IMG/VR virus record: IMGVR_UViG_3300034103_001442
Coordinates: 64,001 to 128,000 of that record
Direction: 5' to 3' (one strand)
Length of the DNA: 64,000 bases
Source: a virus
The number at the start of each line of letters is the position of its first letter. The first letter of the stretch is position 1. Positions 33,425 through 64,000 of this stretch are shown piece by piece. A model generated the notes under the pieces. The model made no database searches. It saw nothing but the letters and a program-made list of their open reading frames with translations, and had not been told where the DNA came from. Both the position numbers and the translations under genes were made by a program.

Positions 33425-35929
33425 CTATGAGAAAAAGTCCTCAAGTGTTGCTGTTTTTTCAACGTGCCAACCAATGGTGCTGATAATACTTTTGATCGGC
33501 TCAATATACGCTTTATCAAATTGAGTTTCGTAGTCAATGAAATTTTCCAACCCAAACTCTTTCGGCAAACCACTAGGACAAGACAGCACAGTTATGTTAT
33601 ATGGGTTTGGTTTCTTCATGTAACAGAATTTGATCTTTTCACCACTTGCTATACCCTGATATTTATTCGTCAGATGTTTTTTCTCAATCAGGTGGTTGAA
33701 AAATATCGCACCCTTGACATGAATGGGTGTGCCCTTCTCATATAACAAGTTCTGGTTTTGAGCCCATTTCTCAATATCAGTCACACCTCGCGGGAATGCG
33801 ACATCCTCAAACTCCATCTTTCTAAACTCACCACGGAAGTTTTCGATAAACCTGTGAAGTGCTGACTCGTTCTCATTCATGATAATCTCAAGTGACTTCT
33901 TAATGTTATCACGACATGACGATGGGGTTGAGGAGCGGACAGCCTCAATGCCCATCATCTTGAGTTTTGGCTTATCATACAGCACACCCTCTTGATCCCA
34001 CACGTTGAGGATGTACATTTTCTTCGCCTTCCAAATACCCTTATTGGCGATAGCCTCACGCTTCATGATCATCTTTTGTTGAGCAGCGTGCATATAGTTC
34101 GCAAGTTCTTGATAGACACTGTCAATGTATGGCTCAAGTTTCTTTTGGCAAACCGTATCAATGAACTTGACAATCTTTTTGTCATCAGTTTCATTTGGCA
34201 TAACTTCTTGAACCAAACGGTCAAGAGTGATGTACACTGAGTCAGTATCAGACGCAATGACATAATCTTTTTCTTTTGTCTTGAACAGTTTGTTGAGGTA
34301 CTCATTGAGTTTACCCTCAATCCAACGGATGGACAACTGACCAGACATAGTGATTGCCTCCGCATGGTTGATATCATACCAGCGGAAGTATTGATTACCC
34401 AACGCACCGTAAGCGGAGTTCAGCTGAATCTTTTTCGCCATTTGCATGTTGTTGAGACGAGCAATTTCTTTCAGCAGTGCAGGGTTTTTGAACTTCTCAT
34501 ATTCTTTCTTGACCTCAATCATTTGCTTCTTGTACACTACACGGTCGTTGTACATCTTTTGCATTAGTGCGGGCAAGAACCCTTGACGCTCTTTTGAATA
34601 CACGCAAAGGTTAGCGGCAATGGCGCAATTCATTTTGTCAAGGTATTCGTGGTAGTCAGTTATTTTGCCATCCAATATTTCCTCAATGGAATGCGACTGC
34701 TTGAGTTTAGTCACAAACGTCTCGGGGGAGATATTATACTGCATAATCAAGTGGGGGTAAAGTGAGTTGAGGTCGAATGATACAACCCATTTGCTCAACC
34801 CAACCTTTGGGTCTTTGACATAGCCACCAACTAGTGACTTACAGTTTTTGTTTTTATCAAACTGCGGGATGACGATGTTTTTACCACGGAGGTAGTTATG
34901 TACAATAACATCCCACTGCTTAACTGAGGCAAGTGTATCTTCATAGTTGACCTTGGCGTCATATGACAGCGCATAGACCAACTCAATGAATTTCATTTTG
35001 TCTTCGAGTTTTTCAATCAGTTCAACGTCACGGATGTTATACTCAATATACTTTTGAAAGTTTGAGTTGTACATATCTTGCAAGCCAGTATACTCTGAAT
35101 AGTCCAGTTTGCGCTCACCAAGTTCAACGTTGGCAATATGATCTAGGCGATATGACTCCTGTTGAGTGTAGGTGAATTTTTTGTACAGGTTTTGATAGTC
35201 AAGCACGTTGACCCCAACTGGACTGTAGGCGATGTTTTCACGCCCACGGATTTGAACTTTGTATTCTTCCAAAATGTTCCAAGGTGACAAACGTTTAGCA
35301 TCATCATCGCCAAGTACATTTTTGATTCGGTTTACAAGGTACGGAATATCAAAGAACTCAATGTTCCAACCAGTGACTACATCAGGGAGATATTCCTCAC
35401 TATTCCAAATCTCAAGGAAAACACGGAGCAATGCAGCCTCATCAGTGCACTTGTAGTACTTGATATTGTCTTGATGCTCGGTATAGTCACCGCAACCAAA
35501 TACAACCTTTTTGCCATCACGTGACATAGTGATGGCTGTGACTTCGTTCAGTGCGGTGTCCACTCGGGGAAAACCGTTATCAATGCTAACCTCAATGTCG
35601 ATGCTAACTACTGAAATCAGCGAGGGATCATACTTAACCTCTCCATGAAAGGTGTCATAAATGTAGAGGTAGGTGAAGTCACTGAGTCCATACAGGCTCA
35701 TACCCTGCACACCCTCATACTTTTGTAGGAACTCTCGACCTTCAGACATACTGCTGAAGTCTACACGACCGACATATTCACCCTTGAGATTTTTATACTC
35801 AGTAGCCTTGTTCGAGGGTATAAATAGATATGGCTTGTACTGGACGGACTTTTTATATGGTTTACCATTTTGGTAACCTCTGACCAGTATCTGGTTACGG
35901 TGCCTTGTTACGTTCGTGTAAAAATGCAT
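33425..35929 (-). CDS. gp43: family B DNA polymerase gp43
   Basis: DIEV, GWN..FFDIPY, SFDLNSLYP, K..LNSAYG, DTDS; start MHFYTN at 35929 with GGAG RBS; no intein/intron. Confidence 0.98.
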   Translation of the reverse strand: MHFYTNVTRHRNQILVRGYQNGKPYKKSVQYKPYLFIPSNKATEYKNLKGEYVGRVDFSSMSEGREFLQKYEGVQGMSLYGLSDFTYLYIYDTFHGEVKYDPSLISVVSIDIEVSIDNGFPRVDTALNEVTAITMSRDGKKVVFGCGDYTEHQDNIKYYKCTDEAALLRVFLEIWNSEEYLPDVVTGWNIEFFDIPYLVNRIKNVLGDDDAKRLSPWNILEEYKVQIRGRENIAYSPVGVNVLDYQNLYKKFTYTQQESYRLDHIANVELGERKLDYSEYTGLQDMYNSNFQKYIEYNIRDVELIEKLEDKMKFIELVYALSYDAKVNYEDTLASVKQWDVIVHNYLRGKNIVIPQFDKNKNCKSLVGGYVKDPKVGLSKWVVSFDLNSLYPHLIMQYNISPETFVTKLKQSHSIEEILDGKITDYHEYLDKMNCAIAANLCVYSKERQGFLPALMQKMYNDRVVYKKQMIEVKKEYEKFKNPALLKEIARLNNMQMAKKIQLNSAYGALGNQYFRWYDINHAEAITMSGQLSIRWIEGKLNEYLNKLFKTKEKDYVIASDTDSVYITLDRLVQEVMPNETDDKKIVKFIDTVCQKKLEPYIDSVYQELANYMHAAQQKMIMKREAIANKGIWKAKKMYILNVWDQEGVLYDKPKLKMMGIEAVRSSTPSSCRDNIKKSLEIIMNENESALHRFIENFRGEFRKMEFEDVAFPRGVTDIEKWAQNQNLLYEKGTPIHVKGAIFFNHLIEKKHLTNKYQGIASGEKIKFCYMKKPNPYNITVLSCPSGLPKEFGLENFIDYETQFDKAYIEPIKSIISTIGWHVEKTATLEDFFS

Positions 35930-35951
35930 AAATACTCCCATTGAACTGACA

Positions 35952-35980
35952 AGTATACCTGAATGAGTTAATAAAGAAAA
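35952..35980 (-). promoter_or_regulatory. promoter for gp43
   Basis: TTTTCT-TTATTAACTCATTCAGG-TATACT. Confidence 0.7.
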
Positions 35981-35993
35981 GCGCGAGGGAAAT

Positions 35994-37166
35994 ATGAGTT
36001 TAGCCAACCTACAAAAAAAGATGGGCATCGTCTCCGATGGTGCTTTTGGACCAGGAACATTAAAGGCAGCAATGGCGTACTACAAACTGACGCCAAATCG
36101 TGCTGCACACTTCTTTGCCCAAACGGCACATGAGTCTGGTAATTTCAAAGCATTTAGTGAAAACCTCAGTTACTCAGCAGATGGTTTGCTGAAAATTTTT
36201 GGTAAGTATTTCAATCCAGGCAACGTTACAAGTTATGCCCGCCAACCTGAAAAAATTGCCAACCGTGTATATGCCAACCGCATGGGTAATGGTAATGAGG
36301 CAAGTGGTGATGGTTGGAAGTATCGTGGGCGTGGCGCATTGCAATTAACTGGTAAAGACAACTATGCCGCATTTGCGAAATATTTAAACAAACCAGAAAT
36401 TATGACAAACCCAGACTTGGTCGCGACCGAATATGCATTTGAATCCGCAATGTTTTTCTTTCAAAAGAATAACCTCTGGGCGATTTGTGATAGTGGCGTT
36501 AGCGATTCAACTATTTTAGCAATGACCAAAAAAATCAATGGTGGCACTCACGGTCTTGCTGACCGTAAAGAGAAAACAATTAAGTACCTCGGTTGGTCAA
36601 TGTCAAACGCACAACCAACAAAGGCAGCACCCCCTCCAGCCCCAGCAAAGCCAGCAGCAGCGCCAGCCAAGCCAACTACAAAATTATCCCCTGATACTGT
36701 TTTGTCTGAAAATTTTAAACTTGGTGAGTTCATAAAATCAGAAACCGCAATACGTAAAGGTATTGACAACAGCCCAAGCGAGGAACATCTTGAAAATCTT
36801 AAACTTGTATGCCAAAAAATTCTTGAACCAGTTAGGAAACACTTCGGCAAACCAATTCGTATTAATAGTGGGTACCGTGGTCCTGCTCTTAATGCTGCTG
36901 TTGGCGGATCAAAAACTTCGCAGCATTGCAACGGAGAGGCAGTCGACTTTGAAATTGACGGACTTGCCAATCCTGAACTAGCAAAGTGGGTTGCTGCCAA
37001 CTGTGACTTTGACCAAATCATTCTTGAGTTCTATGACCCAAAGGAAGGACCAAACAGTGGTTGGGTTCATGCAAGTTATACAAACAAAAAACCAAACCGC
37101 AAACAAACAATGACGGCATCAAGTGCTGGCGGTAAAACCGTTTACACTCCTGGATTTAAAATATGA
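35994..37166 (+). CDS. modular endolysin: PG-binding stub + GH19 + P/A linker + peptidase M15
   Basis: DG.FGPGT; AQTAHESG, YRGRGALQLTG, INGG; SGYR..LN..VGG..SQH..AVD..WVH. Confidence 0.88.
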   Translation: MSLANLQKKMGIVSDGAFGPGTLKAAMAYYKLTPNRAAHFFAQTAHESGNFKAFSENLSYSADGLLKIFGKYFNPGNVTSYARQPEKIANRVYANRMGNGNEASGDGWKYRGRGALQLTGKDNYAAFAKYLNKPEIMTNPDLVATEYAFESAMFFFQKNNLWAICDSGVSDSTILAMTKKINGGTHGLADRKEKTIKYLGWSMSNAQPTKAAPPPAPAKPAAAPAKPTTKLSPDTVLSENFKLGEFIKSETAIRKGIDNSPSEEHLENLKLVCQKILEPVRKHFGKPIRINSGYRGPALNAAVGGSKTSQHCNGEAVDFEIDGLANPELAKWVAANCDFDQIILEFYDPKEGPNSGWVHASYTNKKPNRKQTMTASSAGGKTVYTPGFKI

Positions 37167-55303: not shown

Positions 55304-55328
55304 TAAAAGAGGGGGAGTTGCCTCCCCC
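55304..55328 (-). terminator. rho-independent terminator after gp45
   Basis: GGGGGAG-GCAA-CTCCCCC then T-run. Confidence 0.8.
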
Positions 55329-55333
55329 ATCAA

Positions 55334-55993
55334 TTAACCCTGATAAGAGGATGAAGACTCAACAGCAATCCAGTACTCGACTTCCTTACCCTTAAAGTGT
55401 GACAAACCCTTCGATGAAATTGATACATCGTAGTCGCCAGCCATCACCTTGATATTTTCAGCGCGGAACACCATGCGGAAGTTCGCATTGGTTGTACCAA
55501 CTTCAACGTTGAAAACGTCAGCAGTTGTACCCTTGACATCAACCGCCTGAAGATAGATTTTACCATTCTTGCCTGTGACGGCAATCTCAGGCAAACCTAG
55601 CACGCCAAGCGCACGTGTAGCCTTGGTCAACTTGGCTTCTGGCAAATGGAAATTAACTTCAGCATTTGAGAGATTAATTTCCTTTTCAGGTGCAGCAACG
55701 ATCATAGAAGGATCAGTGAAAGTATACTCACACTGCTCTTCGCCATCACCCACAACAACGTGCTTCTCATTAAAGGTCAACTCTGGAGAGTCAAACTGAG
55801 AAACGACACCCAAGAAACGGGAAACGTCATAAATCGCAAACTGCTGGGGGAAGTCTTGATTCAACATTGCCTTTGCCATCACAGTCTTTGACGGTGAAAT
55901 GGTGCGGATAACGTTGCCAGGCTTTACAAGCACTGATTGATTAATGGTTGCAAAATTCTTCAATACACTAACTGTCTTATCATCAAGTTTCAT
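55334..55993 (-). CDS. gp45: sliding clamp gp45
   Basis: LKNFATINQS, FAIYD...FL, GDY.V.ISS, YWIA.E. Confidence 0.95.
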   Translation of the reverse strand: MKLDDKTVSVLKNFATINQSVLVKPGNVIRTISPSKTVMAKAMLNQDFPQQFAIYDVSRFLGVVSQFDSPELTFNEKHVVVGDGEEQCEYTFTDPSMIVAAPEKEINLSNAEVNFHLPEAKLTKATRALGVLGLPEIAVTGKNGKIYLQAVDVKGTTADVFNVEVGTTNANFRMVFRAENIKVMAGDYDVSISSKGLSHFKGKEVEYWIAVESSSSYQG

Positions 55994-56054: not shown

Positions 56055-56915
56055 TCACTTTTTCTTCTTTAACAAACTAGAATCAGCAGTTGCTGCTGCG
56101 CCAATTTGAGCAAGGTCAATGAGTGAACCGCCGAACACATACATACCAACGTGCTGGAGTTTCATCCATGGGCAAAGCCAAACATGCATTCCAGCCTTGC
56201 GTGACCACTGACAGAACATATAGTCCTCAGACAAGTAGCGATTTGACTCCTCGCAAATTGGGGTGTCGAAAAATGCCATGATCTGACGAGTGCCATCAAA
56301 GTGCTCAGTGCGGATATGATCTGGGCGATACAATTGCTTTGGATATGCTTCCTGGAATTTTTCAAACGTCTTACGGCGAATCATCATGAAGCCAGTTCCC
56401 GCCTCAAGCACTTCAACTGGTTGCCCGAGTGGAATTTCGGTCTGACCGCCAACTGGGTTGAAAACGTAGTCACCAACGTACTTGTCAAGATCTGCTGGGT
56501 CTTTATCAGCAAATCCCTTATCAACTGCAACCTTAATCTTTTCCCAACTAATGCACTTCTTTGGGTATGGACCAGCGATGATGTCATACTTGTTATCAGG
56601 ATCTTCATGATCAGACAACGCAAGAAGCGCAATGACATCGTTGGCATTAAATCCAATATCAGAGTCAATGAACATCAAGTGAGTATCACCACTGCGCATA
56701 AACTCATCAGCGCAATAGTTTCTCGCGCGAGTGATTAGTGACTCATTGAACAAAAAGTAAAACCTTACCTGAATTCCATAGTGTGTACAAAGTGCTGAAA
56801 GGTCAGCAACTGACCTAGCAAACATACCACTACATTGACCGCCATACATTGGAACCGCAAGAAATAACTTACGCTTGCGGAGTTCTTCTACAGACACCTT
56901 AATATCAATTCCCAT
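56055..56915 (-). CDS. GT-A fold glycosyltransferase-like protein
   Basis: PMYGG, NESLITRARN, FIDSDI (DxD), GTGFM, YLSEDY.FC. Confidence 0.75.
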   Translation of the reverse strand: MGIDIKVSVEELRKRKLFLAVPMYGGQCSGMFARSVADLSALCTHYGIQVRFYFLFNESLITRARNYCADEFMRSGDTHLMFIDSDIGFNANDVIALLALSDHEDPDNKYDIIAGPYPKKCISWEKIKVAVDKGFADKDPADLDKYVGDYVFNPVGGQTEIPLGQPVEVLEAGTGFMMIRRKTFEKFQEAYPKQLYRPDHIRTEHFDGTRQIMAFFDTPICEESNRYLSEDYMFCQWSRKAGMHVWLCPWMKLQHVGMYVFGGSLIDLAQIGAAATADSSLLKKKK

Positions 56916-57189
56916 TTTTCATTGCCTCATCGTGAATATAAAGTTGAATAATTGAATAGTGAATAATCTTCAATAAGTCTTTTCGCCACTCTTCAGGTGT
57001 ACCTTTTTTACCATAGCGTTGCGAATACTTTTGAATGTTGCCCATACAAAAACCAGTGCCGTGACCCGAGTCAATAATAAACTCAGTTGCCTGATATTTG
57101 TTTTGTGAGTAGTGTTGGGCGTAGGTGCTATTGACGTACTCTCGAATTTCATCGAGTGTTGCACCCTCATTGTATTTATAATCAGCCAT
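56905..57189 (-). CDS. DUF3310-like small protein
   Basis: TY..HY, GFC.GN..KY..RYGKK..DL.K..HY. Confidence 0.7.
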   Translation of the reverse strand: MADYKYNEGATLDEIREYVNSTYAQHYSQNKYQATEFIIDSGHGTGFCMGNIQKYSQRYGKKGTPEEWRKDLLKIIHYSIIQLYIHDEAMKNGN

Positions 57190-57724
57190 TGACCACCTCT
57201 GTAATATACTTCATAATTTTATCTTGATCCTCAATGCTCTCATTATTGAAACGTTCAGTTACAAACTTCAACTCAAAGTTACCAAGTATGTTACTGATTT
57301 TACTTTCACGACCAGCAAGCCAAGTCTCATTTTGGTTTGACCCACGCTCAGCATAACGAACCTTGCGAGTGTCAGACTTGGTTTGTAGGTAAACCATTTT
57401 GAGGTCAAACTTATTATTGCAATGCTCTAAAAAAGAAGCAGTACAAAGACGATCACCCTCAAAGAAAACAACGGAATCATTTGGCAGTGTGTCAAGAAAC
57501 TTAATAGCCTCTGGCTGAACTGCCATGCTCATTCGGTCTGTTCCAGCAAACACTTCACCCTCTTCATACTTACCAAGGACGTATTTGTTCTCATGCTTAT
57601 GATAGGGAACAAGTTTGAAATCTTCCTTGAGTGTGCCTTTAGCAAAACCGAGTTCACAAAGAACACGACGCATAAGAGTTGACTTGCCACTTCCTGGCTC
57701 GCCAAATATAGCAACAACTTTCAT
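57182..57724 (-). CDS. P-loop nucleotide/DNA kinase of base-modification clusters
   Basis: GEPGSGKS, FAGTDRMSMAVQP, FEGDRL, R...RGS.Q. Confidence 0.75.
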   Translation of the reverse strand: MKVVAIFGEPGSGKSTLMRRVLCELGFAKGTLKEDFKLVPYHKHENKYVLGKYEEGEVFAGTDRMSMAVQPEAIKFLDTLPNDSVVFFEGDRLCTASFLEHCNNKFDLKMVYLQTKSDTRKVRYAERGSNQNETWLAGRESKISNILGNFELKFVTERFNNESIEDQDKIMKYITEVVNG

Positions 57725-57731
57725 ATTCACC

Positions 57732-58802
57732 TCAGTTCAAAAATCTAGTCAGTGAGTTTTCTGCTTCTTGATTGTAGAAGGGCATGTTTTTGATTGATGT
57801 CCAACGTTGTGGTTGCTTGTTGTACCAAGCCTCAACACGAGGAATTCGACCAAAATCTTTTAGACAGTTTACCCAGTCTTTACAGTAGGCGTGATCGGTT
57901 TCAGCCTTGTAGTTTTCATACAGCAGTTCTTGTGGAATGACATGCTGTCTACCCTCTAGGTATTTATTCCAAAGCCAGTCATACTCTGGCCAATCACGCT
58001 TCATTTGCATCGTTTCAGCATACTGTTCATCTATATAGCAGCCGCCATAACGGGAACCTTTATGCTGACGTTTGTAATTACAGCAAGCAGTCTCAAGCGT
58101 GAAAAACCCAGCGCGGATAAATTTTTTATCAGCAATATACTCAGCAGCAGTTCGCTCTAGGTATTCACAGTCTTCATTTGAAATAGTATCACCAGTCAAG
58201 TCGTCTCGACCGATACAAAACGCCCAACCTGACCTATGACTTTTGCCATCAGCAAATTCCATAGTTGGGGGTAGGATAGGGGCATCAATAAACCTAGCAA
58301 TCGCCTCTGAAAAACACCAGTGACCCATTCGCCCCCAGTGATACCAATTGGTCATACATTTTTCTTTGAGGTCATTGTAGTTCTTGTATTTGTCATCGCT
58401 TTGTAGGCATGACTGGATAAAGTTCCCAAGTGTGCCATAGTGCTTCAATGACTCGCCAACTGAATAAAGAAACTTATCAAATACAAGTTTGCGGTACTTA
58501 CAGTCAGGCGAAAACAGGAGTCGTTTTTTGTTCTCAAAGAAAAAGTCAACTAACCCCTGAACATTTGGTGTGATGGTTGAGAAACGATCAGCAAACATTG
58601 ACTCGCATGGACCAGCATAAGTTGCACCATGAAACAAACCAAGGACACAACGTTTCTCAAAGTCAAACCCCATATCATCGGCAATCCATTTTTCAACTGC
58701 GATGTCGGGGGAGCAATCGTTTGTAAGGCAATGAAATTCGTAAAATTTATCAAAACCTACTTTGCGATATTCTATATCGCGGTAGTCAATATCAGATAGC
58801 AT
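57732..58802 (-). CDS. amino acid:DNA transferase-like protein (aGPT-Pplase2 type)
   Basis: D.KYRK, GRMG.W.F.E, DG.SHR.G, FTLET.CC.YK..RY...Y.D. Confidence 0.65.
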   Translation of the reverse strand: MLSDIDYRDIEYRKVGFDKFYEFHCLTNDCSPDIAVEKWIADDMGFDFEKRCVLGLFHGATYAGPCESMFADRFSTITPNVQGLVDFFFENKKRLLFSPDCKYRKLVFDKFLYSVGESLKHYGTLGNFIQSCLQSDDKYKNYNDLKEKCMTNWYHWGRMGHWCFSEAIARFIDAPILPPTMEFADGKSHRSGWAFCIGRDDLTGDTISNEDCEYLERTAAEYIADKKFIRAGFFTLETACCNYKRQHKGSRYGGCYIDEQYAETMQMKRDWPEYDWLWNKYLEGRQHVIPQELLYENYKAETDHAYCKDWVNCLKDFGRIPRVEAWYNKQPQRWTSIKNMPFYNQEAENSLTRFLN

Positions 58803-59454
58803 AGATACATTTTCCATGACGCCAGATTTCTTCCCTTATTTCATAACCAAGGTACTGGCGCTGATTTCTTTTAGCAGCAGCCAGCGTTGTACCAATTCCA
58901 GCAAATGGGTCATATACAACATGACCCTCATCAGTATAATTTAGTATACAGTATTCGGCGATTTCAATCGGTTGACCAACAACTTCGCCATCAATTTTCT
59001 TTTCTTTACCGAATGGTCCCCAAAAATCTTTACCGTAAGTTTGATACAACGAGTCTTTTCGCAGGTTGTACAAACCCTTGACGCCTTCTTTTTGAAAGGT
59101 CAATATATGTAGGATTTGCGAGGAGTAGGCATTGAAACTCTCGCTTTTCTTAGAATATTTTACATCTCTTAGATAATAACCGTTCTCAGAAAAAGAGTCA
59201 ATGACAAATTTAAATTTCGGTAAAATGCGCCCACCATTGCGACGGTCGCCAGTAAATGAAACAGTGGCAGTGCCCAAACGCGGATTCATCATTGGGATAA
59301 TGCCATCCATGAATTTGGTCTTGTAGGTCTCAGGCTTGTTTATATCAACTCCGAAAAACCCAAGGTCTTCATAACAAGGTGGGCTCATGAACAGGTAGTC
59401 ATACTGCTCACTGGCAAACGTATCTAAACAACTACCAAGTTTGTATTCACTCAT
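58792..59454 (-). CDS. beta-class amino-methyltransferase fold protein
   Basis: motif IV-like SPPCY before motif I VYDPFAGIGTT, GYEI. Confidence 0.75.
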   Translation of the reverse strand: MSEYKLGSCLDTFASEQYDYLFMSPPCYEDLGFFGVDINKPETYKTKFMDGIIPMMNPRLGTATVSFTGDRRNGGRILPKFKFVIDSFSENGYYLRDVKYSKKSESFNAYSSQILHILTFQKEGVKGLYNLRKDSLYQTYGKDFWGPFGKEKKIDGEVVGQPIEIAEYCILNYTDEGHVVYDPFAGIGTTLAAAKRNQRQYLGYEIREEIWRHGKCIYAI

Positions 59455-60824
59455 TCAAAAAACGCCTCAAGGCTCGCATTTACACCAACAACGCCATCTT
59501 CATCTTTCATGTTGTGTTTCTTTAAGTAGTCCAACCACTCTTCACTTTCCCACATTCCTGGGCTGATACCATTCCAAAGTGGTCGCCAAAACTTATGATC
59601 CTTGTTTGCACGACGTTCATCAACAAACTTACGACGCAGTGTTTCATACTCCCAAGACTTCAACTCGAGCATTTTCTCGCGGAAGTAACAAACAAGTGAA
59701 ATACGCTCGCTCTTTGGATCATCTGGATTATTCAAAACAATCGGTGTGTTACCATGAATAATCTCATGATTGTTAACAAGGAGCAAGTCTCCAGGACGAA
59801 CGTTGACCGCTACACGGTACTCGGGGAAAATAAGGTAGCCACCAGTATAGTTACCAGTGCCTACAACCAGCAGATTACTCAAACCGTCATTCAAGTCACC
59901 AGCGTCACGGTGGGCAGCAGTACGGAAAGTCTTATTGACCGTGATTGTAGTGAATACAGTTTCAGGGACAAGAAAACGTTTATCAAGTTTATCAGCCGCT
60001 ACTTTTTGGTTTGACCAACGCCATGGCATTAAGTCTTTGAAGCCACGGTTGAGTGATTGTAAGAATGGATAAGAAAGGGCAAACTTGTCAGGGTGTTTTT
60101 CGGTGTATGAAGTCGCACGACCATATGGAATGCGTGGGTAACGATCATACCAACCAGCAACACCAGAATAAACTGACTTGGCATAGTTTGTAACTGAAAT
60201 CCAGTCATTGACTACACGCTCCGCATCAGCACGTTGCTCAGCCGCTGGCTTGTCCAATATTGAATCAACCCACTTATCAAACCAACCGTGATACTCTGGG
60301 TAAACCTTGGTCACCTCAGAGCGTAGCCAAACTTGACCACGTGTATCATCTGGGTTTGCGCGTGGTTTACCCGAGTGACGCTCGCGAATTTTTTCAACTG
60401 ATTCATCTTGAATGAGTTTTGCCGAGTTGTCGAGGAAAAAATCTAGAATTTCTAGTTCGTACTCGGTGACCCAATCGCGACCTTTGCGACCAGCAGTTGT
60501 AAGAAGTTCGCCTCTTGGACCAGCAGCAAGACCTCGGTTTTGACTCTCAGTTGCGGCTTCACGCAATCCATTGTAGGCTTGCTCTTGCTCCTCTTTGGTG
60601 AAAAAGTTTTTACGGAATTTAAAAGCAACAGTGCGTTCATCAGTACCATCAGCACAGTTGTTACAATCTTGATTGCAGTTTTCCTTCGTTGTAATATCAC
60701 AAACGGGAGGCATGAAACAATCAGTGTCTTCCTCGACTAGAATGTCGTAGTGACTTTCATCTAGATAATGACCGAGCAAATGCTCACAGTCAATTTTCTC
60801 TTTTGCTGTGATTACTTTAACCAT
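59451..60824 (-). CDS. TET/JBP-like 2OG-Fe(II) dioxygenase
   Basis: FTTITVN..FRTAAHRDAGD, PGDLLL...H..IHGNT, RISLVCYFR. Confidence 0.8.
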   Translation of the reverse strand: MVKVITAKEKIDCEHLLGHYLDESHYDILVEEDTDCFMPPVCDITTKENCNQDCNNCADGTDERTVAFKFRKNFFTKEEQEQAYNGLREAATESQNRGLAAGPRGELLTTAGRKGRDWVTEYELEILDFFLDNSAKLIQDESVEKIRERHSGKPRANPDDTRGQVWLRSEVTKVYPEYHGWFDKWVDSILDKPAAEQRADAERVVNDWISVTNYAKSVYSGVAGWYDRYPRIPYGRATSYTEKHPDKFALSYPFLQSLNRGFKDLMPWRWSNQKVAADKLDKRFLVPETVFTTITVNKTFRTAAHRDAGDLNDGLSNLLVVGTGNYTGGYLIFPEYRVAVNVRPGDLLLVNNHEIIHGNTPIVLNNPDDPKSERISLVCYFREKMLELKSWEYETLRRKFVDERRANKDHKFWRPLWNGISPGMWESEEWLDYLKKHNMKDEDGVVGVNASLEAFFE

Positions 60825-61366
60825 GATAAAAACTCCCTTGACTTATCTGACAGTTGGCTCATAGGTTTGATGGGGCTGTTCCTATTAAACTTTTTGGCAA
60901 ACTTTTTCGCTTTTTCAAGATGATACTCGCTTGCTCTACTAGTATATAGTAAACCATTTAAATGGTCAAGTTCATGTTGAAAACATCTTGCGGTGATACC
61001 ATCAAACACCTTTGTGACAGTCTCACCGTTGGGGAGCGTATACCTTGTTTTAATTTTCTTTGGTCTTTTGATTTTAACAAACAGACCAGGATTGGACAAG
61101 CAACCCTCTTCCATTAAAATAGTTTCTGATGAATAGTCTACAATCTTAGGATTAAAACAACCAATGACTTCTTCAGCACGCAATACAAACGCACGGTAAG
61201 GTAAACCCACTTGGTTAGCACTCAACCCAAGCCCATGATACTCAATCATAGTCTCAGCAAGGTTGTTATACAACTCAACTGGGTTTGTAGGTGGGTTTGC
61301 AAAATCAAACAACTCCATCTCTTGGCGGAGGATCGGACTGTCACATTCCAACAACTTTAATATCAT
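60812..61366 (-). CDS. def: peptide deformylase
   Basis: GLGLSANQVG, EGCLS, QHELDHL. Confidence 0.95.
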   Translation of the reverse strand: MILKLLECDSPILRQEMELFDFANPPTNPVELYNNLAETMIEYHGLGLSANQVGLPYRAFVLRAEEVIGCFNPKIVDYSSETILMEEGCLSNPGLFVKIKRPKKIKTRYTLPNGETVTKVFDGITARCFQHELDHLNGLLYTSRASEYHLEKAKKFAKKFNRNSPIKPMSQLSDKSREFLSWLK

Positions 61367-63075
61367 ACCATCCTCGAAAAATTCTGATGCTTCACAAACT
61401 TAATAACCGAATGAAACTTGTCATACAACTGATCACCCTTATGGCTGATGATGAACACGTTTGTATCGGCTGTCAGGCTCTCCAAAATTTTCAGAAACTC
61501 ATCTGTTCCCGTAGCATCAAGTGAACTATCAAACACCTCATCCATAATCAACAAGTTTGTTGATGCGGAGTTACGCATTTTAGCAATTGACCGCCAAGTG
61601 AATAACAGTGACAAGTCAATTCGCATTTTCTCACCTTCACTGAATGAGTCATAAGAAAATTCATCACGGAAACGAGACTTGATCGTTTCTTTGAAGTTTT
61701 CATTCAACTCAAACTGAACAAAGAAGTCCATTGAGGCTAGGTACTTGTTGATCAGTTTGTTCATGATTGGAACATACTGACGAATAATTTTCGTTTTGAT
61801 ACCCGAATCTTTCAACAACACTGATGCTACGTCTTGAATTTTCTTTTCTTGATGCAACCCTTCAAGTGATGACACCTTGCTCTTCAATTCAGTTTGTAAC
61901 TTTTCAATCTCAACATTGTTGGCGTCAATAACCTTCGTGTTGTTTCTGATCTTTTCAATTTCATCGTTTAACGTACTGATTGACTCATTCCAAGAGGATA
62001 TCTTGTTATTGTTCTCAGTGATTTCACGATTCAATTTCTCAATTTCAGAATTGACAGATGAAATCTCAGCCAACCTTGATTCTAGAATTGTAAACTCTTT
62101 CGATAATTCTGTCAAGCCCCCATTGACTTGGGTTAGTTGTTCATTACGGGAGTTGAGTTTTTCGCACTTGAACTCTTCATGAATACCCTGCTTACAAGTA
62201 GGGCAGTTGTCGTTTTCTTCGAAAAATTTAACTTCCTTCCTAATCGCGCGAATTCTATCCTCAAGTTTCTTTTCTAATTCAAGAACTTTTTGTTTCTTGG
62301 TTTCGACTTTCGTTTTGTCTGCGATGGTTTGCTTCAAAGTATTAATTTGAGCAGAAATGTTGGCAACAACTACGTTTGCCTCACTGATTTTCACTTTAGT
62401 GACATCAATGAGTTCTTGCTTTTGACCTATCAACTCCTCATTGTTAAGTTTGAGTGACTTGATATTCTTTTCTTGCATCTCGATCTTGTTTTCGATCAAA
62501 TCAATCTCATGTTCAGAGTTCAAGATTTCGTTTTTGTTTGCAACAACTTTTTCTTTCAGCAAACTATTCATGACTGAAAAGATTTGAATATCAAGAAGGT
62601 CTTCAATCACCTCACGTCTTGTATGAGCAGGCAACTGCATAAACGGAATGAAGTTTGCCGAGCCGAGCACAACAATTTGTCCAAATGACTTATGATTCAT
62701 TTTCAAAATAGTTGTCTCAAGTAGTTCTTGATACTCCTTGATGTTTGGACTCTGGTTTATCAGCCCACCATTGCAATAAATCTCAAACACCTCTGGGCGT
62801 TGACCCCTTCGGATTTTATACTCCTTACTACCAATGCTAAACTCACACTCAACCAAACAATTCTTTTGCGTGATAGAGTTTACAAGTTGCGGCTTGTTGA
62901 TATTGCGGAATGGTTTACCGTAAAGAGCAAATGACAAAGCGTCAAGCATGGTAGATTTACCAGCCCCATTCTCACCAACCACAAGTGTTGATTTAGACCT
63001 GTTGAGTTTTATCTCGGTAAATTGGTTGCCCGTTGACAGAAAATTCTGCCAACGGATCGTTTTGAATAGTATCAT
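61363..63075 (-). CDS. gp46: recombination endonuclease subunit gp46 (SbcC/Rad50-like)
   Basis: GENGAGKS, CPTC hook, FSEGE, MDEVFD, ISH. Confidence 0.96.
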   Translation of the reverse strand: MILFKTIRWQNFLSTGNQFTEIKLNRSKSTLVVGENGAGKSTMLDALSFALYGKPFRNINKPQLVNSITQKNCLVECEFSIGSKEYKIRRGQRPEVFEIYCNGGLINQSPNIKEYQELLETTILKMNHKSFGQIVVLGSANFIPFMQLPAHTRREVIEDLLDIQIFSVMNSLLKEKVVANKNEILNSEHEIDLIENKIEMQEKNIKSLKLNNEELIGQKQELIDVTKVKISEANVVVANISAQINTLKQTIADKTKVETKKQKVLELEKKLEDRIRAIRKEVKFFEENDNCPTCKQGIHEEFKCEKLNSRNEQLTQVNGGLTELSKEFTILESRLAEISSVNSEIEKLNREITENNNKISSWNESISTLNDEIEKIRNNTKVIDANNVEIEKLQTELKSKVSSLEGLHQEKKIQDVASVLLKDSGIKTKIIRQYVPIMNKLINKYLASMDFFVQFELNENFKETIKSRFRDEFSYDSFSEGEKMRIDLSLLFTWRSIAKMRNSASTNLLIMDEVFDSSLDATGTDEFLKILESLTADTNVFIISHKGDQLYDKFHSVIKFVKHQNFSRMV

Positions 63076-63079
63076 AGTG

Positions 63080-64000
63080 TTACTCTATGGACAAGGCTTC
63101 AGTATAAAGGTTCTGAAGAAAAATGTCAAGTTTTTTCTTATCAATACTGGTATCCATACCATCAACCACTTTGCGCAATATGGTCAGCGTGTCCTCAGCC
63201 TCATTGATGATGTCACCGTCATCTTCAAGATTCAGATTCAAGTGGTCATCAAGCACCTGTAAGTCTGACACCCCTGTTTTCTCAAGTTTGTCAATAAACA
63301 TATCAAACCAAAGAGGATTTTCTTTAGAGTGAATGATGACTTTGACATATTGATTTTTGTAGGGCGCTGGGTCAAACAGAAGCACTTCATCCATCGTTTT
63401 GCCAGCGTCATCATAGTGAATTTTGCTGAACATTTTGTATGGATTTTCGATAAACAACAACTCACGTGTATCAGTATCGAAAATATGAAAGCCACGCGGG
63501 TCATTATAGTCTGACCAAGTCATTTCATAAGGAGCGCCAAGGTAGTGAATATTACCCCTGCTTGACTTATGATGGAAGTGACCAGACAAAACCATATCGA
63601 ATTTATCAAACTGTTTGGCATCAAATCCATGGTCATTGAATGAGCCACGGTACATTTCAAATCCTTGAATCTCTAGGTGACCAAAAAGGATTTGGGCATC
63701 GGTTTCATTGACAAACTTCATTGACTCGTCATAGTTACCCGAGCAAACCCAAGGCAACAATGCGATTTTCAAGCCATCAAACTCTTTAGTGGTTGGGCTT
63801 GAATAATAAGAAACATCATATGAACTATGCTCAAACAACTCATTCATTGAGTTGACTTCATTTGTATTCTTAAATGAAGTGTCATGGTTGCCGATCAAAA
63901 CGTCAAGTTTTATCCCTGACGTGTCACAATGACCAACAAACTTCCGCAAGTTTTTTGCGGTCAAATAGTTGATATACTTGCGGCGGTCTACAATATCGCC
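63080..64000 (-). CDS. gp47: recombination endonuclease subunit gp47 (SbcD/Mre11-like), 5-prime truncated
   Basis: GD.VDRR at window edge, GNHD, GHLE, SGHFH. Confidence 0.95.
   Translation of the reverse strand, partial: GDIVDRRKYINYLTAKNLRKFVGHCDTSGIKLDVLIGNHDTSFKNTNEVNSMNELFEHSSYDVSYYSSPTTKEFDGLKIALLPWVCSGNYDESMKFVNETDAQILFGHLEIQGFEMYRGSFNDHGFDAKQFDKFDMVLSGHFHHKSSRGNIHYLGAPYEMTWSDYNDPRGFHIFDTDTRELLFIENPYKMFSKIHYDDAGKTMDEVLLFDPAPYKNQYVKVIIHSKENPLWFDMFIDKLEKTGVSDLQVLDDHLNLNLEDDGDIINEAEDTLTILRKVVDGMDTSIDKKKLDIFLQNLYTEALSIE

What the first reader, a model, noticed from the sequence alone, without database searches (positions are those of the whole stretch)
56055..60824. Candidate post-replicative DNA hypermodification operon: TET/JBP dioxygenase + MTase-fold + amino-acid:DNA transferase + kinase + glycosyltransferase
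Seen: six tightly coupled genes (overlapping or nearly abutting) in the replication block between def/gp46 and gp45. They carry HxD..H..R dioxygenase motifs, SAM-binding motifs, an aGPT-Pplase2-like E.CC.YK..RY signature, a P-loop kinase, a DUF3310-like protein and a DxD GT-A protein. Known: in phages such as ViI, M6 and phiW-14, hydroxymethyluracil in DNA is phosphorylated by a kinase and then substituted by an amino-acid:DNA transferase, but those phages make hmdUMP before replication. Inference: this phage encodes ThyX (normal dTMP) and no dUMP hydroxymethylase is visible in the window. The hydroxymethyl handle may therefore be made on DNA by the dioxygenase (T to hmU, or mC to hmC), then phosphorylated, substituted and further methylated or glycosylated, giving a possibly undescribed base for evading restriction or CRISPR.
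Basis: partly seen in the sequence, partly recalled or inferred. Interest (0 to 1): 0.85.

Follow-up and report, generated by a model that had tools for sequence, protein, structure and literature searches.

The report
Clamp-tailed phage thymine hypermodification cassette
An uncultured T4-like phage carries a four-gene cassette (DNA oxidase, methyltransferase-like enzyme, amino-acid:DNA transferase, kinase) that most likely decorates thymines in already-copied DNA. This kind of pathway is published, but two of these enzymes end in the same short tail as the phage's DNA polymerase, so they probably ride the sliding clamp.

Summary
Six overlapping or abutting minus-strand genes lie between def/gp46 and gp45: TET/JBP, a beta-class amino-MTase fold, an amino-acid:DNA transferase (AADT), a Ploopntkinase3 kinase, DUF3310 and a GT-A protein. 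The held genome has ThyX but no C5-MTase, ThyA-fold hydroxymethylase or ParB.

This scan has reported it before on at least 17 other genomes.

Only four genes form the module. TET, MT-like, AADT and kinase recur together in unrelated small phages. DUF3310 and the GT-A gene are resident genes of this lineage and also occur in phages without TET.

Three points go beyond the published accounts that I read:
- The MT-like gene has a non-canonical motif IV and travels with this AADT type (29 of 35 loci).
- TET and AADT end in the tail of the phage's own gp43 polymerase (SLEAFFE, SLTRFLN, TLEDFFS).
- Orthologues in clamp-less small phages lack the tail (0/17) and often carry ParB instead.

The final base is unknown. 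I class this as a new variant of a known kind.

The parts
59451..60824 (-). TET/JBP-family 5-methylpyrimidine dioxygenase (457 aa), predicted thymine dioxygenase. The catalytic core is about residues 209-390, with an N-terminal Cys-rich extension. The C-terminal tail is ...ASLEAFFE (last 8 codons at 59454-59477).
   Evidence: - Pfam PF12851: 86.4 bits against a cut-off of 34.9.
- H305, D307, H357 and R374 are invariant in alignment A5.
- 42% identity over the core to a ParB-linked small-phage TET.
- The tail motif is present in 49/51 TETs of T4-like loci.
58792..59454 (-). Methyltransferase-like protein (220 aa) with a beta-class N6A/N4C DNA amino-MTase fold. SAM motif I (DPFAGIGTT) is kept. 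Motif IV is non-canonical (SPPC-YED).
   Evidence: - Pfam PF01555 matches only from residue 81.
- The AF2 model has pLDDT 88.5, and Foldseek top hits are N4C/N6A DNA MTases with TM about 0.7.
- The family motif is [SG][PTS]P[CD]YED, against DPPY/SPPY in canonical phage MTases.
- It lies beside this AADT type in 29 of 35 assessable loci.
57732..58817 (-). Amino-acid:DNA transferase (AADT, formerly aGPT-Pplase clade 2; 361 aa). The C-terminal tail is ...NSLTRFLN (57735-57758).
   Evidence: - Pfam PF18724: 57.1 bits against a cut-off of 26.2.
- 26% identity over 95% of its length to ViI gp247, the serine:DNA transferase.
- The essential Glu/Cys pair is conserved as E242/C246.
- The tail is present only in T4-like contexts.
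57182..57730 (-). P-loop kinase (182 aa; GTG start, or ATG at 57724), predicted 5-hmdU DNA kinase of the Ploopntkinase3 clade.
   Evidence: - Pfam PF18751: 52.3 bits against a cut-off of 27.
- P-loop GEPGSGKS.
- It lies directly after an AADT in T4-like and small-phage modules.
- The validated ViI kinase gp243 falls in a different Pfam family, HMUD2.
56905..57189 (-). DUF3310 protein (94 aa). It is a resident gene of this lineage and its part in the pathway is doubtful.
   Evidence: - Pfam PF11753, 1e-9; phrog_480.
- It is kept next to the GT-A gene whatever cassette follows TET, including TAGT-only cassettes.
56055..56915 (-). GT-A fold glycosyltransferase-like protein (286 aa) with an invariant DxD and a lysine-rich C-terminus. 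The acceptor is unknown, and it is probably not part of the module.
   Evidence: - AF2 pLDDT 76.5; all top Foldseek hits are GT-A enzymes (STIV A197, LH3, ppGalNAc-T) with TMq 0.39-0.48.
- D84 and D86 are invariant.
- Homologues occur in phages without TET.
- 0/36 carry the clamp-type tail.
55334..55993 (-). gp45 sliding clamp, the proposed docking platform for the tailed enzymes.
   Evidence: - Pfam gp45-slide_C 9.7e-16; phrog_223 9e-72.
- In complex prediction with TET residues 395-457 the score was 0.41 against a best control of 0.02, rated weak support.
33425..36028 (-). Family-B DNA polymerase (gp43, 867 aa) ending ...TATLEDFFS. This is the reference clamp-binding tail of this phage.
   Evidence: - Pfam DNA_pol_B and DNA_pol_B_exo1.
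- The tail was found by a genome-wide scan of C-terminal ends.
60812..61366 (-). Peptide deformylase, the upstream neighbour in the same transcription unit.
   Evidence: Pfam PF01327, 1.3e-37.
61363..63075 (-). gp46-like SbcC/Rad50 ATPase, the first gene of the run. A promoter-like site lies at 63101-63129.
   Evidence: - phrog_77, 1.4e-179.
- TTGACA-17-TATACT, 11 of 12 matches.
55311..55328 (-). Intrinsic-terminator-like hairpin directly after gp45, the likely end of the transcription unit.
   Evidence: Seven-pair stem with 6 G-C pairs, followed by a T-run.

Best explanation
This is a post-replicative thymine hypermodification cassette. Proposed steps, all inferred from family membership and context and none assayed here:
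1. The TET/JBP enzyme oxidises thymine in duplex phage DNA to 5-hydroxymethyluracil.
2. The Ploopntkinase3 kinase phosphorylates the hydroxymethyl group.
3. The AADT attacks C6 with Cys246, expels phosphate and lets an amino-acid-type nucleophile add to the exocyclic methylene.
4. The methyltransferase-fold protein then tailors the appended group, probably by SAM-dependent methylation. This is the weakest step.

The result would be a bulky thymine derivative that shields the DNA from host nucleases.

TET and AADT each end in a hydrophobic-acidic tail like that of the phage's own gp43 polymerase. They are therefore probably tethered to gp45 sliding clamps left on newly made DNA. This would couple modification to replication. 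It would also play the role that a ParB-type clamp plays for the related TETs of small phages.

DUF3310 and the GT-A protein are neighbours, not demonstrated parts of the pathway.
For: Family membership:
- Pfam matches are above the curated cut-offs for TET, AADT, kinase and MTase.
- Catalytic residues are conserved.
- Lee 2021 showed that the Glu and Cys are essential in M6 gp51 and ViI gp247.

Source of the hydroxymethyl group:
- ThyX is present, but no ThyA-fold hydroxymethylase and no C5-MTase is found in this record or in five relatives, two of them 98% and 100% complete.
- Phage 5mYOX enzymes of this type oxidise T on DNA (O'Toole 2026).

Module boundaries:
- TET, MT-like, AADT and kinase recur as a block in T4-like phages and in unrelated small phages with DnaB, terminase and portal genes.
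- MT-like and AADT are 59-61% identical between the window and L089, while TET is 42% and the kinase 35%. So the MT-like/AADT pair appears to move together.
- Where this AADT type lacks the MT-like gene, five loci carry an Asp/Arg-hydroxylase-like gene after the AADT. That fits a tailoring slot.

Clamp tail:
- gp43 ends TLEDFFS, TET ends SLEAFFE and AADT ends SLTRFLN.
- In the TET-anchored loci, tails are on TET 49/51, AADT 18/24, def 0/34, gp46 0/35, gp45 0/31, GT-A 0/36 and kinase 1/26. Of the 429 other ORFs, 28 carry the tail. The ten of these that I scanned are five TAGT, three GT-B and one GNAT enzyme just after TET, plus a polB.
- In the AADT-anchored loci, T4-like contexts have tails on TET 13/14 and AADT 11/15. 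Small phages have them on TET 0/17 and AADT 0/17.
- The hydrophobic-acidic C-termini of T4 gp43, gp55 and gp33 are the established gp45 ligands (PMC2988020).
- Complex prediction gave weak support: score 0.41, best of 3 controls 0.02. The mark was reached by 58 of 80 solved complexes and 2 of 110 mismatched pairs, but at 0.60 or under by only 7 of those 80 solved complexes and by both mismatches. The runs agree in at least 62% of contacts, and the partner's pLDDT is at least 64. A clamp-peptide complex is solved for RB69, so the pass may come from memory.
Against: - No chemistry was measured. Substrate (T or 5mC), nucleophile, product and extent of modification are all unknown.
- The kinase is in Ploopntkinase3, not in the HMUD families that hold validated 5-hmdU DNA kinases.
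- The AADT is only 26% identical to a characterised enzyme.
- The record is 87% complete, so a C5-MTase or hydroxymethylase could lie in the missing part.
- Earlier work found some ParB-less clade C1 TETs inactive in E. coli.
- The MT-like protein lacks the canonical motif IV and may be inactive, or may be an ordinary DNA methylase. One T4-like locus with this AADT type (L104) has no MT-like gene at all.
- The kinase and the MT-like protein carry no tail.
- The complex prediction gives only weak support.
- The candidate gp55 of this phage ends ...ADSLDN, without the hydrophobic residues.
Confidence: 0.65

Rival explanations
1. The methyltransferase-like protein is an ordinary, independent N6-adenine or N4-cytosine DNA methyltransferase that protects against restriction. 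It sits in a DNA-modification island but takes no part in the thymine pathway.
For: - The whole-length fold matches N4C and N6A DNA MTases.
- SAM motif I and the acidic motif II residue are conserved.
- O'Toole 2026 lists N6/N4 MTs among domains that co-occur with 5mYOX.
- Locus L104 has the same AADT type without it.
Against: - Motif IV is [SG][PTS]P[CD]YED throughout the family, instead of (D/N/S)PP(Y/F/W).
- All 7 contexts looked up, and 29 of 35 assessable AADT loci, have it beside this one AADT type, mostly between TET and AADT with overlapping stop and start codons.
- Its identity tracks that of the AADT, not that of TET or the kinase.
- It is the only PF01555 gene in the genome.
Confidence: 0.25
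2. The GT-A protein, and perhaps DUF3310, act on the same base, for example by glycosylating 5hmU or the appended group.
For: - Translational coupling with the kinase and DUF3310.
- GT-A fold with an invariant DxD.
- Glycosyltransferases are the commonest 5mYOX neighbours.
Against: - The GT-A and DUF3310 genes are kept beside gp45 whatever cassette follows TET.
- The family occurs in phiM12, phiN3, ACG-2014f and HTVC027P, none of which showed a TET match.
- It is absent from the small-phage modules.
- 0/36 carry the tail that TAGT and GT-B enzymes of sister cassettes carry.
- It has no match to the TAGT family.
Confidence: 0.15
3. The dioxygenase acts on 5-methylcytosine, and the cassette hypermodifies cytosine, as in clade A/B phage TETs.
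For: - Burke 2021 showed phage TETs that oxidise 5mC, and suggested that P-loop kinases might act on 5hmC in some contigs.
- The record is 87% complete.
Against: - No C5-MTase is found in this record or in five relatives, two of them near-complete.
- AADTs and 5-hmdU kinases are characterised only on uracil derivatives.
- Only 6% of 5mYOX pathways co-occur with a C5-MT.
Confidence: 0.07
4. The shared C-terminal motif is not a clamp-binding element. It could be a degradation or folding signal, or a motif that binds another shared partner, and the enzymes find DNA on their own.
For: - The complex prediction gives only weak support.
- The kinase and the MT-like protein act without a tail.
- The gp55 candidate lacks the hydrophobic part.
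Against: - The motif is at the extreme C-terminus of the phage's own polymerase and of another polB in L077.
- It is present on orthologues only in genomes that encode gp45.
- It matches the description of the T4 and RB69 clamp ligands.
Confidence: 0.2

Closest known systems
Metavirome TET_JBP + 5-hmdU DNA kinase + aGPT-Pplase2 clusters (Lee et al., Nucleic Acids Res 2021/22, PMC8989533, Fig. 2, sequences 22-25)
   Same: [quoted passage not shown]
- There is no nearby 5mC-forming gene.
- The proposed logic is the same: T to 5hmU in situ, then phosphorylation and substitution.
   Different: - Those clusters were only drawn and inferred.
- No methyltransferase-fold partner appears in the text I read.
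- Nothing is said about clamp-type tails.
- The kinase here belongs to the Ploopntkinase3 clade.
Phage 5mYOX clade C1 T-dioxygenase clusters, ParB-dependent subclass (O'Toole et al., PNAS 2026, PMC13229309)
   Same: - The dioxygenase core is related: 42% identity to a ParB-linked TET of a small phage that carries the same MT-like, AADT and kinase genes.
- The clusters are linked with P-loop kinases and AADTs.
- Thymine oxidation on DNA is experimentally shown for the class.
   Different: - No ParB is found in this genome.
- The TET is about 150 aa longer and ends in a polymerase-like tail.
- The proposed helper is the replicative clamp gp45, not a ParB-type clamp.
- No member of this T4-like branch is known to me to have been assayed.
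Salmonella phage ViI 5-NeOmdU pathway (kinases gp67/gp243, serine:DNA transferase gp247, PLP decarboxylase gp226)
   Same: - The kinase-then-AADT chemistry on 5hmU in DNA.
- The AADT aligns over 95% of its length and keeps the essential Glu/Cys.
   Different: - ViI makes 5hmdU before replication.
- Its kinase is in Pfam HMUD2.
- Its tailoring enzyme is a PLP decarboxylase, not an MTase fold.
- Identity is only 26%, so the nucleophile cannot be inferred.
T4/RB69 gp45 clamp ligands: C-terminal tails of gp43, gp55 and gp33 (Geiduschek and Kassavetis 2010, PMC2988020)
   Same: A short hydrophobic-acidic motif at the extreme C-terminus, shared with the phage's own polymerase.
   Different: The known ligands are replication and transcription proteins. 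Here the tail is on DNA base-modifying enzymes: TET and AADT in the window, and TAGT, GT-B and GNAT in sister cassettes. Binding has not been measured.
Beta-class N6A/N4C DNA methyltransferases (M.PvuII, M.RsrI, M1.HpyAVI, rotifer N4CMT)
   Same: The fold, the order of motifs (IV before I) and the SAM motif DPFxGxGTT.
   Different: Motif IV is [SG][PTS]P[CD]YED, so the aromatic fourth residue is replaced and the first two positions vary. The gene is bound to one AADT type.

Membership tests
TET/JBP (5mYOX) dioxygenases, Pfam PF12851 | Profile match above the curated cut-off | tested here: met
   86.4 bits against a cut-off of 34.9, residues 252-383.
TET/JBP (5mYOX) dioxygenases, Pfam PF12851 | Fe(II) triad HxD...H and the 2OG-binding Arg | tested here: met
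   H305, D307, H357 and R374 are invariant in 28 sequences. The sequence is shown.
TET/JBP (5mYOX) dioxygenases, Pfam PF12851 | Oxidation of thymine (not 5mC) in DNA | not testable with these tools
   Context only: no C5-MTase in this or five related records, and the partners are specific for hmU.
ParB-dependent 5mYOX subclass (O'Toole 2026) | Adjacent ParB-like activator gene | tested here: not met
   No PF02195 match in the 151.7-kb record. def abuts TET. ParB_N is present before the TET of small-phage copies such as L089.
Amino-acid:DNA transferase (AADT / aGPT-Pplase clade 2), PF18724 | Profile match above the cut-off | tested here: met
   57.1 bits against a cut-off of 26.2. ViI gp247 scores 197.6 bits in the same family.
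Amino-acid:DNA transferase (AADT / aGPT-Pplase clade 2), PF18724 | Essential Glu and Cys of the active site (Lee 2021) | tested here: met
   E242 and C246 are invariant across 12 sequences, including ViI gp247. Their essentiality is stated.
Amino-acid:DNA transferase (AADT / aGPT-Pplase clade 2), PF18724 | Transfer of a defined nucleophile to 5-PmdU in DNA | not testable with these tools
   26% identity to the nearest characterised enzyme. No match to a solved structure by sequence.
5-hmdU DNA kinases (Pfam HMUD families) | Membership of a family that holds a validated kinase | tested here: not met
   The protein matches Ploopntkinase3 (52.3 bits) and no HMUD family at E <= 0.01. ViI gp243 matches HMUD2 at 5.6e-169.
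5-hmdU DNA kinases (Pfam HMUD families) | P-loop, and a position beside an AADT | tested here: met
   GEPGSGKS. The gene is adjacent to an AADT in the window and in the loci.
Beta-class N6A/N4C DNA amino-methyltransferases, PF01555 | Fold and SAM-binding motif I | tested here: met
   Foldseek E 1.5e-16 to 1e-10 with TM about 0.7 to N4CMT, M1.HpyAVI, CcrM and M.PvuII. DPFAGIGTT is conserved.
Beta-class N6A/N4C DNA amino-methyltransferases, PF01555 | Catalytic motif IV (D/N/S)PP(Y/F/W) | tested here: not met
   SPPC-YED in the window and [SG][PTS]P[CD]YED in 16 family members. It aligns against DPPY and SPPY of two phage MTases. The Pfam match starts only at residue 81.
GT-A glycosyltransferases | GT-A fold with a DxD motif | tested here: met
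   All top Foldseek hits are GT-A enzymes, E 3.7e-7 and weaker, with modest TMq of 0.39-0.48. D84 and D86 are invariant in 20 sequences.
TET-associated glycosyltransferases (TAGT, PF20691) | Profile match and dependence on a TET neighbour | tested here: not met
   No Pfam hit. Homologues occur in phages with no TET match. True TAGTs occur in the sister cassettes L026 and L068 and in DLP6.
gp45 sliding-clamp ligands | Hydrophobic-acidic motif at the extreme C-terminus, like that of the phage's own gp43 | tested here: met
   TLEDFFS (gp43), SLEAFFE (TET) and SLTRFLN (AADT).
gp45 sliding-clamp ligands | Physical binding to gp45 | tested here: inconclusive
   Complex prediction gave weak support: 0.41 against a best control of 0.02, with the caveats printed by the tool.

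The most novel reading that the evidence does not exclude
Clade C1-type phage thymine dioxygenases and the enzymes that follow them need a DNA sliding clamp to work along duplex DNA, and different phages supply different clamps. Small phages encode a ParB-type clamp next to the TET. T4-like phages instead graft the polymerase's gp45-binding tail onto TET, AADT, TAGT, GT-B and GNAT enzymes, so that hypermodification is carried out by a tool-belt on clamps left behind the fork. This would explain why ParB-less clade C1 TETs looked inactive when expressed alone in E. coli. In addition, the MT-like/AADT pair may make an N-methylated amino-acid-thymine that has not been described.
Probability: 0.4. 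Interest if true: 0.75.

Novelty: new variant of a known kind. Interest (0 to 1): 0.55.

Why it matters
- Post-replicative thymine hypermodification is a main route by which phages escape restriction enzymes and some CRISPR nucleases, and its enzymes are candidate tools for site-specific DNA labelling.
- This locus adds a defined four-gene variant with an unassigned methyltransferase-fold partner, so the product may be a new base.
- The gp45-binding tail offers a concrete, testable answer to a question the field calls open: how a polymer-level pathway covers a whole genome in time for packaging.
- The tail gives a simple sequence mark for finding DNA-acting modification enzymes in T4-like genomes.
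- The tail also suggests adding gp45 and its loader when such TETs are tested in heterologous hosts.
- Cultured relatives (Stenotrophomonas phage DLP6, Caulobacter phage Cr30) carry tailed TETs and could be used for direct tests.

Tried and rejected
- Sequence searches of the AADT against solved structures, single sequence and 12-sequence profile, found nothing useful. So the PaMx11 gp46 structure could not be used to map the active site.
- Pfam at loose thresholds did not confirm that the roughly 203-215-aa proteins before the TET of L087, L090 and L091 are ParB-like. Only weak BLAST similarity around a GH(T/L)R motif was seen for L087 and L090. Only the L089-type proteins count as ParB.
- The 5mC route was considered and set aside for lack of any C5-MTase.
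- A pre-replicative hmdUMP route was set aside for lack of a ThyA-fold enzyme.
- Treating the GT-A protein as a TAGT was rejected.
- Iyer et al. 2013 could not be read. It is cited from memory and through Lee 2021.
- Only one complex job was allowed. It went to gp45-TET, so a possible MT-like/AADT complex was not tested.

Full report
**What is there**

The window is bases 64001-128000 of a 151.7-kb IMG/VR virus record estimated 87% complete. On the minus strand a run of coupled genes reads as follows:
- gp46-like ATPase (61363-63075)
- peptide deformylase (60812-61366)
- TET/JBP dioxygenase (59451-60824)
- methyltransferase-like protein (58792-59454)
- amino-acid:DNA transferase, AADT (57732-58817)
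- P-loop kinase (57182-57730)
- DUF3310 protein (56905-57189)
- 286-aa protein (56055-56915)
- gp45 sliding clamp (55334-55993)

Neighbouring genes overlap by 4-26 nt or are 1 nt apart. A good promoter-like site precedes gp46, and a strong hairpin with a T-run follows gp45.

**Family assignments**

All Pfam matches are above the curated cut-offs: Tet_JBP 86.4 bits, ADDT 57.1, Ploopntkinase3 52.3, N6_N4_Mtase 59.5, DUF3310 38.7.
- TET keeps H305-x-D307, H357 and R374, all invariant in 28 relatives.
- The AADT keeps E242 and C246, invariant in 12 sequences including ViI gp247. Lee et al. showed this Glu/Cys pair to be essential in M6 gp51 and ViI gp247.
- The 286-aa protein has no Pfam match. 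An AF2 model (pLDDT 76.5) matches only GT-A glycosyltransferases, and D84xD86 is invariant.
- The MT-like protein folds with confidence (pLDDT 88.5) and matches N4C and N6A DNA methyltransferases over its whole length.

**Source of the hydroxymethyl group**

The record encodes ThyX. It has no ThyA-fold enzyme, no C5 cytosine methylase and no ParB. Five related records, two of them 98% and 100% complete, also lack a C5-methylase and a ThyA-fold enzyme. Thymine in DNA is therefore the likely substrate of the dioxygenase.

- Lee et al. 2021 described metavirome clusters in which TET_JBP replaces the dUMP hydroxymethylase next to kinase and aGPT-Pplase2 genes.
- O'Toole et al. 2026 showed that phage 5mYOX enzymes oxidise T on DNA. 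They state that clade C1 is consistently linked with P-loop kinases, AADTs and amidotransferases.

The pathway type is thus already known as an inference. No complete TET-kinase-AADT pathway has been reconstituted in the papers I read.

**Module boundaries**

In 80 IMG/VR loci found with the TET, the gene sits at one site between gp46/def and gp45. What follows it varies:
- amidotransferase, amidoligase-like, GNAT and a distant AADT, followed by the kinase
- a TAGT glycosyltransferase alone
- a GT-B glycosyltransferase
- the window's set: MT-like, AADT and kinase

DUF3310 and the GT-A gene stay beside gp45 through all of these. The GT-A family also occurs in phiM12, phiN3, ACG-2014f and HTVC027P, which gave no TET match.

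By contrast, TET, MT-like, AADT and kinase recur as a block in small phages with DnaB-type helicase, terminase and portal genes, without DUF3310 or the GT-A gene. I therefore count four genes as the module and treat the other two as neighbours.

**The methyltransferase-like partner**

The family has 49 clusters at 90% identity.
- SAM motif I (DPFAGIGTT) and the following acidic residue are conserved.
- The catalytic motif IV is [SG][PTS]P[CD]YED, whereas two canonical phage enzymes aligned with it have DPPY and SPPY.
- All seven contexts looked up place it between TET and AADT.
- In 37 loci anchored on this AADT type, it lies beside the AADT in 29 of 35 assessable cases.
- Between the window and the small phage L089, MT-like and AADT are 59% and 61% identical. 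TET is 42% identical over its core only, and the kinase 35%. The MT-like/AADT pair therefore seems to be exchanged as a unit.
- Exceptions: one T4-like locus has no such gene (L104). Five small-phage loci have no MT-like gene; in the one scanned (L114), an Asp/Arg-hydroxylase-like gene follows the AADT.

This pattern fits a tailoring enzyme that acts on the group added by the AADT, most simply by methylation. That is an inference. An ordinary adenine or cytosine methylase is not excluded (I give it about 25%).

**The kinase**

It has a P-loop and the right neighbours. It belongs to Ploopntkinase3, whereas the validated ViI kinase gp243 belongs to Pfam HMUD2. Its nearest relatives in cultured phages are in Caulobacter phage Cr30, in mycobacteriophages (annotated as adenylate kinase) and in Microbacterium phages, where it follows a TET-like gene. 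Its role as a 5-hmdU DNA kinase is inferred.

**Clamp-type tails**

In this genome, a scan of all ORF ends found the motif on very few real genes. The clearest are the family-B polymerase (TATLEDFFS), TET (ASLEAFFE) and AADT (NSLTRFLN).

| Protein, TET-anchored T4-like loci | With tail |
|---|---|
| TET | 49/51 |
| AADT (two types, only 22-25% identical to each other) | 18/24 |
| deformylase | 0/34 |
| gp46 | 0/35 |
| gp45 | 0/31 |
| GT-A | 0/36 |
| DUF3310 | 0/19 |
| kinase | 1/26 |

Of 429 other ORFs, 28 carry the motif. The ten I scanned are five TAGT, three GT-B and one GNAT enzyme directly after TET, plus another polB.

| Context, AADT-anchored set | TET with tail | AADT with tail |
|---|---|---|
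| T4-like genomes | 13/14 | 11/15 |
| small phages | 0/17 | 0/17 |

The small-phage AADTs lack the tail although they are 59-75% identical to the window's AADT. They simply stop before the extension.

The hydrophobic-acidic C-termini of T4 gp43, gp55 and gp33 are the established ligands of gp45.

A complex prediction of gp45 with TET residues 395-457 gave weak support:
- The score was 0.41, and the best of 3 controls was 0.02.
- The mark was reached by 58 of 80 solved complexes and 2 of 110 mismatches. At 0.60 or under it was reached by only 7 of those 80 solved complexes and by both mismatches.
- The runs agree in at least 62% of contacts, and the partner's pLDDT is at least 64.
- An RB69 clamp-peptide complex is solved, so the pass may reflect memory.

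Taken together, the comparative pattern is strong and the binding itself is untested.

**A link to ParB**

The small-phage modules of the L089 type have a ParB_N gene directly before the TET. O'Toole et al. found this arrangement to be required for activity on duplex DNA and discussed it in terms of a clamp that holds the enzyme on DNA.

The T4-like TETs have no ParB but carry a tail for the replicative clamp. My most novel reading is that two kinds of clamp serve one purpose. It would also explain why some ParB-less clade C1 enzymes appeared inactive when expressed alone. I give it about 40%.

**Verdict**

- The locus is a new variant of a known kind. It combines an unassigned MTase-fold partner, a kinase of an unvalidated clade and clamp-type tails on the DNA-acting enzymes.
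- This scan has reported the same kind of cassette, with the same tails, on at least 17 other genomes. I checked the claims independently on this DNA.
- The product, the nucleophile and the extent of modification remain unknown.

Noticed in passing
L032:8371-12747, L026:8368-9153, L057:8866-10212 (relatives; the same site as window 57732-59454): The slot after TET is a swap site. Alternative cassettes are (a) amidotransferase, amidoligase-like, GNAT, a 431-aa unknown and a distant AADT; (b) a TAGT alone; (c) a GT-B glycosyltransferase. Sister phages therefore probably make different thymine derivatives.
   Followed up: partly
L114:4181-5434 (also L112, L113, L115, L116): Five small-phage loci have the window's AADT type but no MT-like gene. 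In L114, the one scanned, an Asp/Arg beta-hydroxylase-like (cupin) gene follows the AADT. This may be an alternative tailoring step.
   Followed up: partly
L002 (Stenotrophomonas phage DLP6, KU682439.2) and L003 (Caulobacter phage Cr30, KF301602.1): These are cultured T4-like phages with tailed TETs annotated as 'SNF2 DNA repair protein'. DLP6 has a TAGT (ending LSDLSSFFN) and a sugar nucleotidyltransferase before the TET. Cr30 has an AADT, a TAGT-like protein (ending ISDLSKLF) and an inositol-1-phosphate synthase after it.
   Followed up: partly
window 57173-57180 (-): An exact T4-type late-promoter box, TATAAATA, lies just inside the start of the DUF3310 gene, upstream of the GT-A gene and gp45. 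It could give these two genes their own late transcription, separate from the four-gene module.
   Followed up: no
G000:C1:128119-128712 (-), just beyond the window's right end: The ORF in the place where gp55 lies in DLP6 (197 aa) ends ...EEDSNADSLDN. It is acidic, but it lacks the hydrophobic residues of the clamp-binding tail seen on gp43, TET and AADT. Its identity was not checked.
   Followed up: no
G000:C1:42125-42841 (+), before the window: A 238-aa ORF ends ...LSTLNDFFTLG, a tail-like motif. It is not known whether this is chance.
   Followed up: no
window 56055-56915 (-), C-terminus: The GT-A protein and its relatives end in a disordered lysine-rich tail (SSLLKKKK here, KFKDKGKKK in L032), and pLDDT is under 50 from residue 257. 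This may be a nucleic-acid or membrane anchor.
   Followed up: no
L032:6621-7001 and L026:6624-7001: Relatives carry a MazG/PRA-PH-type pyrophosphohydrolase directly before the TET. L032 also has a pyrimidine-dimer-glycosylase-like gene (a weak match, below the Pfam cut-off), and L026 a second 2OG-Fe(II) oxygenase (also below the Pfam cut-off). In the window, def abuts TET with nothing between them.
   Followed up: no
Hits H10-H17 and H124 (Microbacterium phages Matzah, Cinna, Cressida and MementoMori): Genes 2 and 3 at the left genome end are a TET-like 'oxidoreductase' and a kinase related to the window's. Cluster B-type mycobacteriophages carry the kinase as gene 1, annotated as adenylate kinase.
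   Followed up: no
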